A stretch of DNA of 64,000 nt from Bacillota bacterium. GTDB lineage: Bacteria; Bacillota; Clostridia; Christensenellales; DTU072. The stretch lies in the NCBI GenBank assembly GCA_023394875.1, contig JAEXAB010000003.1, positions 624,602 through 688,601 of the forward strand, in the 5' to 3' direction. Numbering within the stretch: position 1 is the first letter of the stretch; each line of letters begins with the position of its first letter. The notes below the pieces were generated by a model. That model was not told where the DNA came from, searched no databases, and saw nothing but the letters and a program-made list of their open reading frames with translations. The translations under genes were made by a program, and so were the position numbers. Below are positions 46,616-47,054 of this stretch, piece after piece.

Positions 46616-46644
46616 TTGACAAAACGCCATTATCTCAATATAAT
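46616..46644 (+). promoter_or_regulatory. consensus sigma-A promoter of the tRNA-Thr locus
   Basis: TTGACA (46616-46621), 17-nt spacer, TATAAT (46639-46644). Confidence 0.75.
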
Positions 46645-46750
46645 AATAGAGCATAAAATGCTGTTGTAGCTCAGCGTAGGGGCGACGCGGGAAAAAGTTG
46701 CCAGTGGCAAGTTTTTAGCCAAAGCCGACAAGAGCTATGCTCGCAGTCCG

Positions 46751-47017
46751 GAAGCGCGCGTCCTTGGTAAGACTGACAGCTAAGGGGAAAACGACTCAAA
46801 AACTGCCAAAATGTACTGTGGTCTATGCCACGAAAAACTTAATAAAAATGCACTTGCTGCTATGGCTCAGTCGGTAGAGCGCGTCCTTGGTAAGACTGAC
46901 AGCTAAGGGAAAAACGGCTCAAAAACTGCCAAAATGTACTGTGGTCTAAACCACTAAAAACTTAATAAAAATGCACTTGCTGCTATGGCTCAGTCGGTAG
47001 AGCGCGTCCTTGGTAAG
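46751..47017 (+). repeat. tandem 123-bp repeat (about 2.2 copies), each unit ending in the 5' half of tRNA-Thr
   Basis: The units are 46772-46894 and 46895-47017, with about 6 differences, preceded by a 21-nt partial unit at 46751-46771. Every unit ends ..GCGCGTCCTTGGTAAG. Confidence 0.9.
46856..46894 (+). pseudogene. truncated tRNA-Thr (5' half only, breaks in the anticodon loop)
   Basis: GCTGCTATGGCTCAGTCGGTAGAGCGCGTCCTTGGTAAG is identical to the first 39 nt of the intact gene. It then diverges (ACTGACAGC..). Confidence 0.85.
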
Positions 47018-47054
47018 GACGAGGTCATGGGTTCAAATCCCGTTAGCAGCTCCA
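46979..47054 (+). tRNA. tRNA-Thr (GGT)
   Basis: GCTGCTATGGCTCAGTCGGTAGAGCGCGTCCTTGGTAAGGACGAGGTCATGGGTTCAAATCCCGTTAGCAGCTCCA. The cloverleaf is complete, with anticodon loop TTGGTAA. Confidence 0.92.

What the first reader, a model, noticed from the sequence alone, without database searches (positions are those of the whole stretch)
46616..47054. Array of promoter-proximal truncated tRNA-Thr 5' halves, all broken at the same anticodon-loop nucleotide
Downstream of a consensus promoter (TTGACA-17-TATAAT, 46616-46644) the sequence reads as follows:
- A degenerate tRNA-like start at 46660 (GCTGTTGTAGCTCAGCG..), then about 75 nt of unrelated sequence, then ..GCGCGTCCTTGGTAAG ending at 46771.
- Two 123-bp units at 46772-46894 and 46895-47017, with about 6 differences.

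Each unit is 84 nt of non-tRNA sequence plus the first 39 nt of tRNA-Thr. Only the last unit continues into a 3' half. All three breakpoints coincide with the nucleotide where the downstream 337-bp repeat starts, so they sit at the presumed recombinase crossover point.

tRNA-targeting integration normally leaves extra 3' fragments, not upstream 5' halves. This array is therefore atypical. It could be scars of elements whose attP carries the 5' side, or recombinase-driven tandem amplification.

All copies lie in one transcription unit with the functional tRNA. The precursor would therefore contain several RNase-P-recognisable half-molecules. Whether these act as tRNA-half-like RNAs or decoys is speculative.

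A 12-nt inverted repeat flanks the crossover and is a candidate recombinase or accessory-protein site. It is TACTGTGGTCTA at 46814-46825 and 46937-46948, and TAGACCACAGTA at 47155-47166 and again at 60553-60564.
Basis: seen in the sequence. Interest (0 to 1): 0.6.

Follow-up and report, generated by a model that had tools for sequence, protein, structure and literature searches.

The report
Recombination scars upstream of tRNA-Thr
Upstream of a threonine tRNA gene sit leftover front halves of earlier copies of that gene, each cut at the exact spot where mobile DNA recombines with it. This suggests incoming DNA repeatedly swapped in a whole new tRNA gene instead of patching the old one; the leftovers themselves look inert.

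Summary
A 12/12 consensus promoter (46616-46644) is followed by old tRNA-Thr 5' fragments and two 123-bp units (84-nt spacer "X84" plus 39-nt 5' half, 5 mismatches). Then comes the only intact tRNA-Thr(GGT), at 46979-47054.

Every half ends in TTGGTAAG, the anticodon loop plus one base. This 8-bp core is where a family of integrative elements recombines:
- It bounds a 13.4-kb island in the window.
- It bounds a 5.1-kb insertion in a clean occupied/empty pair from another host.
- A variant of it (TTGGCAAT) splits a nuclease ORF.

The block X84 + whole tRNA + about 340 bp of arm-like DNA recurs in three unrelated chromosomal contexts. It is always joined at the same nucleotide to a different resident 5' half, under the resident promoter. 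It is 184/184 identical between two hosts whose neighbouring gene is only 82% identical.

My best reading is that mobile DNA carrying a promoterless complete tRNA-Thr recombines at the core, strands the resident 5' half and takes over its promoter. This is a cis-linked variant of "tRNA-dependent lysogeny".

No integrase was found, nor any free element carrying X84. The element insertions I could resolve are classical and add no unit. I found no support for functional tRNA halves or decoys.

The parts
46616..46644 (+). Resident sigma-70 consensus promoter (TTGACA-17-TATAAT). It is the only promoter-like site upstream of the tRNA on this strand.
   Evidence: 12/12. Equivalent 12/12 promoters stand upstream of the first 5' fragment in L084, L085, L086 and L109 (read).
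46660..46676 (+). Oldest tRNA-Thr 5' fragment (17 nt, broken in the D loop).
   Evidence: Conserved in the related species L084.
46698..46710 (+). Short hairpin followed by a T run (weakly terminator-like) in the old spacer. A compensatory change keeps it in L084 (TTGCC/GGCAA versus TTGCT/AGCAA).
46733..46771 (+). Diverged resident 5' half ('unit 0'), ending in the core.
46772..46855 (+). X84 spacer, unit 1 (type 1: ..GGTCTATGCCACG..).
46856..46894 (+). Stranded tRNA-Thr 5' half (39 nt), ending in the core TTGGTAAG.
46895..46978 (+). X84 spacer, unit 2 (type 2: ..GGTCTAAACCACT..). It is identical to the single unit of L084 and L086.
46979..47054 (+). Functional tRNA-Thr(GGT). The anticodon loop TTGGTAA lies at 47010-47016.
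47010..47017 (+). Crossover core TTGGTAAG. It also occurs at 46764-46771, 46887-46894 and 60408-60415.
47055..47089 (+). Intrinsic terminator of the tRNA (14-bp stem plus T run). It is part of the repeated module.
47018..47354 (+). tRNA 3' half plus P'-arm-like DNA (left copy). It carries GGCATAAAA sites at 47119, 47210, 47221 and 47321 and the inverted motif at 47154-47177.
47355..60163 (.). Cargo of island E1: methyltransferase, 2,076-aa surface protein, LytTR two-component pair, TfoX_N, Fpg-like and CarboxypepD_reg proteins. No recombinase.
60164..60407 (+). P-arm-like region, with GGCATAAAA at 60242, 60256 and 60268. Positions 60255-60414 (the last 7 nt fall in the core) are 94% identical to the DNA left of the pseudo-core in L106 and L104.
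60408..60755 (+). Core plus orphan tRNA 3' half plus the second P' arm copy (96% identical to the first). Together with the P region it forms an attP-like junction. A terminator for leftward genes lies at 60732-60758.
60766..64000 (-). Prophage remnant E2: a truncated tape-measure N-terminus at 60766-61317 and a tail-completion-like gene at 63184-63594.
46924..46949 (+). Inverted-repeat motif in X84 (AACTGCCAAAATGTACTGTGGTCTAA). It also occurs at 46801-46826 in unit 1. Its partners are at 47154-47177 and 60552-60575.

Best explanation
The array is a fossil stack produced by site-specific recombination at the anticodon loop of tRNA-Thr(GGT). I do not think it is a set of functional half-tRNAs.

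Proposed mechanism:
1. A family of integrative elements, almost certainly using a tyrosine integrase, crosses over in the 8-bp core TTGGTAAG.
2. Some incoming DNA carries, immediately to the right of such a core, the 84-nt spacer X84. After it come a complete but promoterless tRNA-Thr gene, its terminator and about 300 bp of arm-like DNA.
3. Recombination with the resident tRNA leaves the resident 5' half stranded upstream. It also places the incoming tRNA under the resident consensus promoter.
4. Each further event, or the use of a different core in an array that is already carried, changes the number of stranded halves.
5. Units can be lost again by recombination between cores or between the identical 62-nt unit ends.
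6. The mature tRNA would be cut out of a leader of about 330 nt. The halves are by-products.

Shown here:
- the core is a crossover site;
- the X84-tRNA-arm block is shared horizontally between hosts;
- different resident halves are joined to it at one nucleotide;
- X84 contains no promoter-like site.

Inferred:
- an element form carrying P-arm-core|X84;
- the integrase;
- read-through transcription from the resident promoter.

Unresolved: whether the two units here came from two events or arrived together as a block.
For: 1. The core is a crossover site.
- TTGGTAAG begins the 345-bp direct repeats that flank the 13,398-bp island E1.
- In another host, L109 (empty) and L106 (occupied) match 601/608 to the left and 900/900 to the right of a 5,109-bp insertion that begins exactly at the core.
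- In L106 and L104 a variant core, TTGGCAAT, splits an ORF. Rejoining the two parts gives a full-length REase_MTES_1575 domain (profile positions 4-96 of 96, E = 1.8e-24).
- GGCATAAAA occurs 12 times in the window against 1.8 expected. Ten of the 12 flank the cores, all in one orientation.

2. Seven different left-hand sequences are joined to the same GACTGACAG.. directly after TTGGTAA.

3. In every locus found, X84 is followed by the tRNA and, wherever the contig reaches far enough, by the same arm DNA.
- There are three unrelated chromosomal contexts: AMP-binding gene, SIS/CGGC genes, and an MGMT-like gene.
- Flank GC ranges from 25% to 46%, while the module is 90-100% identical.

4. The window and L084 share 184/184 nt of X84 plus tRNA. 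Their adjacent AMP-binding gene is only 82.4% identical, and the intergenic DNA about 70%.

5. In L085 the last 5' half and the 3' half carry two compensatory acceptor-stem changes (5:68 C-G to T-A; 7:66 A-T to G-C). They also come with a different leader. So the whole tRNA travels as one piece and is not a resident/incoming hybrid.

6. X84 has no promoter-like site, but all five host contexts keep a 12/12 promoter upstream of the first fragment (sequences).

7. Copy number is polymorphic:
- one type-1 unit in SRR13400998;
- two units in this window, and the contig of SRR13400996 ends where two units would break it;
- one type-2 unit in L084 and L086;
- two units in L085;
- one unit in L106 and L109.

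8. A precedent exists. In tRNA-dependent lysogeny, attP and attB share only 8-17 bp, the host tRNA is not rebuilt, and the phage supplies the tRNA (PMC10865867).
Against: - No sequence with a P-arm-core|X84 junction was found. No integrase was found in the window or in any related locus.
- The two element insertions whose ends I could resolve are classical: E1 here, and L106 versus L109. Their junctions read P-region-core-3' half and 5' half-core-3' half-P'. The L106 insertion did not add an X84 unit, since there is 1 unit in both states.
- The displaced resident 3' half expected at the far end was never seen.
- The type-1/type-2 order is the same in the window and in L085, and both L085 units share locus-specific substitutions. 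That fits a two-unit block transmitted together, or gene conversion, better than one unit per event.
- The one-unit strain (L081) also appears to hold two arm variants, because contig L087 breaks at a shared 31-mer. It may therefore simply have lost a unit.
- Relatives of the adjacent prophage remnant in IMG/VR carry no tRNA-Thr and none of these motifs.
Confidence: 0.55

Rival explanations
1. Collapsed 5'-donating islands. An element whose attP carries the tRNA leader and 5' half integrated between the resident 5' half and the 3' half, and later lost all but 84 nt. In this reading X84 is made of the island's two ends.
For: - Islands that displace a 5' fragment exist: 159 of 3,919 in Islander.
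- X84 behaves as two segments. The first 60 nt are conserved, while the last 24 nt co-vary with the tRNA in L085 unit B.
Against: - The spacer is 84 nt (85 nt in L085 unit B) in every unit of every host context, so one collapse would then have had to spread. This model offers no route for that.
- X84 always co-occurs with the same downstream arm DNA and shares a significant inverted motif with it.
- In L085 the 5' and 3' halves co-vary, which argues against a hybrid of an incoming 5' half and a resident 3' half.
Confidence: 0.15
2. Ordinary local tandem duplication (slippage or unequal crossing-over) of a vertically inherited tRNA leader, with no role for mobile DNA.
For: - The two units share 62 identical terminal nucleotides, which is enough for unequal exchange.
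- One-unit and two-unit states occur in the same species with identical flanks.
Against: - It cannot explain the same X84 joined at the same nucleotide to seven different 5' halves in three unrelated chromosomal contexts.
- It cannot explain 100% identity of X84 plus tRNA between hosts with 82% identical flanking genes.
- It cannot explain why the break coincides with a demonstrated crossover core.
- It probably does explain the gain or loss of single units within a lineage.
Confidence: 0.07
3. A functional RNA array. The co-transcribed 5' halves or X84 would act as tRNA-half-like regulators, RNase P decoys, or a regulatory leader for tRNA-Thr.
For: - All copies lie between the only strong promoter and the only strong terminator.
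- X84 is highly conserved and contains a small hairpin, GTGGT-CTAA-ACCAC.
Against: - The halves are not tRNA-like to ARAGORN, or to Rfam at E<=1.
- The leader folds no better than shuffles (z = -1.06).
- There is no complementarity between X84 and the DNA upstream of the orphan 3' half, as a split tRNA would need.
- Copy number varies freely, and one genome has deleted the whole tRNA and X84 (L104).
- X84 conservation is equally explained by recent horizontal spread.
Confidence: 0.05
4. Assembly artefact: a collapsed or expanded repeat.
For: Short-read assemblies do break inside this region.
Against: - The two units differ at 5 positions.
- A two-unit array is assembled independently in L085.
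- The ends of the Logan contigs fit one-unit and two-unit genomes exactly.
Confidence: 0.02

Closest known systems
tRNA-dependent lysogeny (Guerrero-Bustamante & Hatfull, mBio 2024, PMC10865867). Lj965 of Lactobacillus johnsonii is cited there as a possible case, and substitution of host tRNA genes by prophage-borne ones is reported in Sinorhizobium meliloti (PMC11476347).
   Same: - Recombination occurs inside a host tRNA gene through a very short common core (8-17 bp there, 8 bp here).
- The junction does not rebuild a tRNA.
- A complete tRNA of the same isotype and anticodon comes with the incoming DNA.
   Different: - There the phage tRNA lies elsewhere in the genome and has its own promoter. 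Here it lies 84 nt from the core, has no promoter-like site and sits behind the resident promoter.
- Here the events have stacked into an array of stranded 5' halves.
- The hosts here are Clostridia, not Actinobacteria.
- No phage, no integrase and no viability requirement could be shown here.
tDNA-targeting genomic islands with anticodon-loop crossover and tandem accretion. These are Islander/TIGER islands (PMC4383910). The sublocation classes of Williams 2002 and the cis-mobilizable elements of streptococci are recalled from memory.
   Same: - An intact tDNA plus a cognate fragment in the same orientation flank an island.
- The crossover is centred on the anticodon loop.
- Repeated arm-type-like sites flank the core.
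- There is an attP-like junction between tandem elements.
- Occupied and empty alleles both exist.
   Different: - The islands resolved here have no integrase of their own.
- The upstream fragments are 5' halves separated by only 84 nt, with no island between them.
- About 96% of Islander islands displace a 3' fragment.
Integron cassette arrays (an analogy only).
   Same: A promoterless gene is inserted by site-specific recombination downstream of a resident promoter, and units stack in series bounded by recombination sites.
   Different: There is no IntI integrase, no attI or attC sites and no folded single-stranded substrate. The cargo is always the same tRNA.

Membership tests
tDNA-targeting integrative island (Islander signature) | An intact tDNA and a cognate tDNA fragment, in the same orientation, bound the island. 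| tested here: met
   tRNA-Thr at 46979-47054 and the orphan 3' half at 60408-60452 flank 13.4 kb. L106 shows the same arrangement.
tDNA-targeting integrative island (Islander signature) | A tyrosine integrase gene inside the island. | tested here: not met
   Pfam found no recombinase in the ORFs of at least 80 aa that were scanned between 47355 and 63594, nor in the L106 or L090 neighbours. The window ends at 64000, so an integrase further right cannot be excluded.
tDNA-targeting integrative island (Islander signature) | Crossover at a fixed sublocation of the tRNA (here the anticodon loop), with both occupied and empty alleles. | tested here: met
   Junction table. For L109 versus L106, 601/608 and 900/900 nt match on either side of a 5,109-bp insertion at the core.
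tDNA-targeting integrative island (Islander signature) | Arm-type binding sites flanking the attP core. | tested here: inconclusive
   GGCATAAAA occurs 12 times against 1.8 expected. Ten of the 12 lie within about 320 nt of a core, on both sides of the core at 60408. Protein binding was not tested.
tRNA-dependent lysogeny | [quoted passage not shown] | tested here: met
   The resident half and X84 share only TTGGTAAG. The junction products are not called as tRNAs.
tRNA-dependent lysogeny | [quoted passage not shown] | tested here: inconclusive
   A complete tRNA-Thr(GGT) follows X84 in every locus and is shared horizontally. The element that carries it was not recovered.
tRNA-dependent lysogeny | A temperate phage with a tyrosine integrase mediates the event. 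| tested here: not met
   No integrase was found. Eight IMG/VR scans found neither the module nor a tRNA in relatives of the prophage remnant.
tRNA-dependent lysogeny | The element's tRNA is required for survival of the lysogen. | not testable with these tools
   This needs genetics. It is also unknown whether this genome has another tRNA-Thr(GGT).
Island displacing a 5' tDNA fragment | The island, with its integrase, lies between the displaced 5' fragment and the regenerated tDNA. | tested here: not met
   Only 84-85 nt of non-coding DNA lie between each 5' half and the next in all the units examined.
Split tRNA genes or functional tRNA halves | Separately encoded halves with complementary flanking sequences that allow them to be joined, or stable half-RNAs. 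| tested here: not met
   There is no significant complementarity between X84 and the DNA upstream of the orphan 3' half. RNA stability was not testable.

The most novel reading that the evidence does not exclude
X84 + tRNA-Thr + arm (about 0.5 kb) may be a small, self-contained tRNA replacement cassette. On this reading it moves between distantly related Clostridia by hitch-hiking on the att recombination of an integrase supplied in trans. Each time, it overwrites the resident tRNA-Thr gene and captures its promoter. That would make a core translation gene a horizontally exchanged cassette, and the stacked 5' halves a readable record of successive replacements.
Probability: 0.25. Interest if true: 0.7.

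Novelty: new variant of a known kind. Interest (0 to 1): 0.45.

Why it matters
If the reading is right, tRNA-targeting mobile DNA in anaerobic Clostridia does not always patch the gene it cuts. It can replace the gene wholesale with a promoterless copy that borrows the host promoter.

- **Reach of a known phenomenon.** This would extend tRNA-dependent lysogeny, so far demonstrated experimentally only in actinobacteriophages, to a different phylum and to a tighter, cis-linked architecture.
- **Host range.** Carrying a whole tRNA avoids mismatched hybrid acceptor stems, which could explain how such elements cross wide host ranges.
- **Annotation.** Runs of upstream 5' tDNA fragments become an annotatable signature of past replacements. 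Island finders that expect one fragment and one integrase per island would miss these loci.

The practical consequence for this genome is small. It has one functional tRNA with a long leader and inert debris upstream.

Tried and rejected
- **Orthologous loci through the neighbouring gene.** The genome scan with the AMP-binding neighbour returned relatives of at most 69% identity with no tRNA-Thr nearby.
- **IMG/VR scans.** I searched for the core|X84 junction, the interior of X84, P-region-core, the arm motifs, and relatives of the prophage-remnant proteins. Nothing relevant was found. L101 is a chance 20-mer in an unrelated phage.
- **BLAST against phage and plasmid records.** Only tRNA-level hits came back. 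Vescimonas and Subdoligranulum show an ordinary tRNA-Thr with a similar terminator.
- **Protein search with the small ORF inside the arm.** I hoped to retrieve more loci this way. No hits.
- **X84 start derived from the tRNA 3' acceptor strand plus trailer.** The alignment score is within the shuffle noise, so I dropped the idea.
- **One unit per integration.** My first model was that island E1 brought unit 2. It is not supported. The analogous insertion in L106 is classical and adds no unit.
- **CGGTAGAGAGGCT at 60399 as a fossil tRNA 5' half.** It is conserved P-region DNA that, in L106, continues into a nuclease ORF. I do not claim tRNA ancestry for it.
- **E1 absent from the one-unit strain.** Contig-end k-mer logic suggests two arm variants in that sample as well, so presence or absence could not be settled.
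- **More distant relatives of the CGGC neighbour, for an ancestral empty site.** There was either no synteny or the contigs ended in the arm.

Full report
**What is in the window**

The described anatomy is present.
- A 12/12 sigma-70 consensus promoter lies at 46616-46644.
- A 17-nt tRNA-like start follows at 46660, then about 55 nt of unrelated sequence, then a diverged tRNA-Thr 5' half ending at 46771.
- Two 123-bp tandem units follow, at 46772-46894 and 46895-47017. They differ at 5 positions. TRF reports period 123, 2.2 copies and 94% matches.
- Each unit is an 84-nt spacer, which I call X84, plus the first 39 nt of tRNA-Thr(GGT).
- Only the last copy continues into a 3' half. It is the only tRNA called by ARAGORN and Rfam (71.8 bits).
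- At E<=1 Rfam still sees nothing in the truncated copies.
- A strong terminator follows the tRNA at 47055-47089.

**The breakpoint is a recombination core**

Every half ends in TTGGTAAG, which is the 7-nt anticodon loop plus one base.
- The same 8 bp begin a direct repeat of about 345 bp (47010-47354 and 60408-60755, 96% identical). The repeat comprises the tRNA 3' half, the terminator and about 300 bp of further DNA.
- The motif GGCATAAAA occurs 12 times in the window against 1.8 expected. Ten of these lie in the repeats or just left of the second core, all in one orientation.
- The site at 60164-60755 therefore looks like a complete attP (P-region, core, 3' half, P' arm). The site at 47010 looks like an attL.
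- The 13,398 bp in between (island E1) encode a methyltransferase, a 2,076-aa surface protein, a LytTR two-component pair and other cargo, but no recombinase.
- To the right lies a prophage remnant with a truncated tape-measure gene.

**Related loci**

A metagenome scan for the core|X84 junction found three contigs. A look-up through the gene next to one of them found ten more. Together with two Logan contigs of the window's own species, they give five host lineages in three unrelated chromosomal contexts:
- AMP-binding gene | tRNA: the window, L081, L083 and L084;
- SIS gene | tRNA | CGGC gene: L085 and L104-L113;
- MGMT-like gene | tRNA: L086.

Flank GC ranges from 25% to 46%. The block X84 + tRNA + arm is 90-100% identical between these loci.

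In every case a 12/12 consensus promoter stands upstream of a resident 5' half. That half is joined, directly after TTGGTAA, to the same GACTGACAG.. of X84. Seven distinct left-hand sequences share this junction.

**Direct evidence for recombination at the core**
- L109 and L106 are an empty/occupied pair. They match 601/608 nt to the left and 900/900 nt to the right of a 5,109-bp insertion that starts exactly at the core of the functional tRNA.
- Inside that insertion, the DNA left of a variant core (TTGGCAAT) is 94% identical to window 60255-60414.
- The variant core splits an ORF. Its two parts, 4.7 kb apart, rejoin across TTGG into a full-length REase_MTES_1575 domain (E = 1.8e-24, profile positions 4-96 of 96).
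- So a 4.7-kb circle was captured through a pseudo-core by a chromosomal attP-like junction.
- One genome (L104) has deleted X84, the tRNA and an arm, fusing the resident half to mid-P-region.

The locus is a recombination hot spot and the core is where the exchanges happen.

**Why the X84-tRNA-arm block appears to be mobile**
- The window and L084 share 184/184 nt of X84 plus tRNA. Their adjacent AMP-binding gene is 82.4% identical and the intergenic DNA about 70%.
- L086, in an unrelated context, is 239/243 identical to the window over the same block.
- In L085 the terminal tRNA has a different leader and two compensatory acceptor-stem pairs relative to the window's tRNA (5:68 C-G to T-A; 7:66 A-T to G-C). 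Its 5' and 3' halves therefore belong together and are not a resident/incoming hybrid.
- X84 has no promoter-like site, so the incoming tRNA must rely on the resident promoter.
- X84 and the arm share an inverted motif of about 26 nt. None of 300 shuffles scored as well. This ties the two sides of the tRNA together.

**Best explanation**

Mobile DNA that carries, directly right of a TTGGTAAG core, X84 and a complete promoterless tRNA-Thr recombines with the resident tRNA-Thr. This strands the resident 5' half and takes over its promoter. Repetition, or the use of alternative cores in an array that is already carried, makes stacks. Recombination between cores or between the identical 62-nt unit ends removes units.

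Such an element form could arise from the configuration seen here. Excision between the core at 46887 and the core at 60408 would give a circle reading P-region-core|X84-tRNA-arm-cargo.

**What weakens this explanation**
- I never saw that circle or that junction, and I never found an integrase.
- The two insertions I could resolve (E1 here, and L106 versus L109) are classical. The L106 insertion added no X84 unit.
- The same type-1-then-type-2 order occurs in the window and in L085. Both L085 units also share locus-specific substitutions. This suggests that a two-unit block can travel together, or that gene conversion has acted.
- The one-unit strain (L081) is probably a unit loss rather than a pre-insertion state.

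I put 0.55 on the overall mechanism. I have higher confidence, about 0.8, in the narrower claim that the halves are inert scars of recombination at an integrase core.

**Rivals**
- A collapsed island that donated the 5' half is possible. Islander lists 159 such islands among 3,919. It does not explain the near-constant spacer of 84-85 nt across hosts, or the linkage of X84 to the arm.
- Plain tandem duplication explains gain or loss of units within a species, but not the cross-host junctions.
- A functional RNA role has no support. The halves are not tRNA-like. The leader's folding energy is ordinary (z = -1.06). There is no split-tRNA-style complementarity.
- An assembly artefact is excluded by independent assemblies.

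**Comparison with known systems**

The closest described system is tRNA-dependent lysogeny of actinobacteriophages (PMC10865867). There the common core is 8-17 bp, no tRNA is rebuilt, and the phage supplies a cognate tRNA.

This locus differs in four ways:
- the tRNA is 84 nt from the core;
- it has no promoter-like site of its own;
- events have stacked;
- neither a phage nor an integrase could be shown.

The locus also fits the general picture of tDNA islands with anticodon-loop crossover and tandem accretion (PMC4383910), apart from the missing integrase and the upstream 5' halves.

I therefore rate it a new variant of a known kind, of moderate interest.

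Noticed in passing
L106 4955-9560 and L104 (related locus, not the window): An REase_MTES_1575-like ORF is split at a pseudo-core TTGGCAAT. Its two parts lie at the ends of a 4.7-kb segment (DUF819, a decarboxylase-like protein and a 395-aa membrane protein). The segment was evidently captured as a circle by a chromosomal attP-like junction.
   Followed up: yes
L104 15640-15700 (1.78-Mb metagenomic contig): The resident 5' half plus core is fused directly to mid-P-region (..TTGGTAAG|AAAGGCATAAAATATC..). X84, the functional tRNA-Thr(GGT) and one arm are deleted, so this genome has no tRNA-Thr at the locus.
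   Followed up: partly
window 46698-46710, and L084: A small hairpin plus T run sits inside the oldest spacer. It is conserved between two species through a compensatory change (TTGCC/GGCAA versus TTGCT/AGCAA). It could be a weak attenuator or the relic of a terminator.
   Followed up: partly
window 48348-54578 (-): A 2,076-aa surface protein with Listeria-Bacteroides repeats and MBG/Ig domains. Its last 70 residues hit the ribosomal L27A/L15 Pfam family (E = 4.5e-11), which is an odd match. Internal 212-nt repeats lie at 50224 and 51382.
   Followed up: no
window 60766-61317 (-): A tape-measure protein N-terminus ends in junk codons directly against the end of the arm. The prophage remnant was truncated right at the module boundary. 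A variant in SRR13400996 (L088) has SnoaL-like and other genes where this window has phage genes.
   Followed up: partly
L088 1-140 (same species, just beyond the window's right end): Three copies of CATCTAACCTGACCAC-like repeats within about 100 nt, possibly arm sites of yet another element. A similar TGACCCAC repeat follows tRNA-Thr in Vescimonas fastidiosa (L102).
   Followed up: no
window 20527-20873 (-), 15884-16050 (-), 3804-4132 (+): A tmRNA gene, a cobalamin riboswitch, and a cluster of four tRNA genes (Met, Met, Glu, Val). All are ordinary features unrelated to the finding.
   Followed up: no
window 46415-46443 (-): A second 12/12 consensus promoter points the other way, towards the AMP-binding gene. 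It lies about 170 nt from the tRNA promoter.
   Followed up: no
L086 1391-1540 and L109 1080-1250: A hairpin-rich insertion of about 140 nt in the arm, between GGCATACA and TAGACCACAGT. Two unrelated host contexts share it, and it is absent from the window's copies.
   Followed up: no
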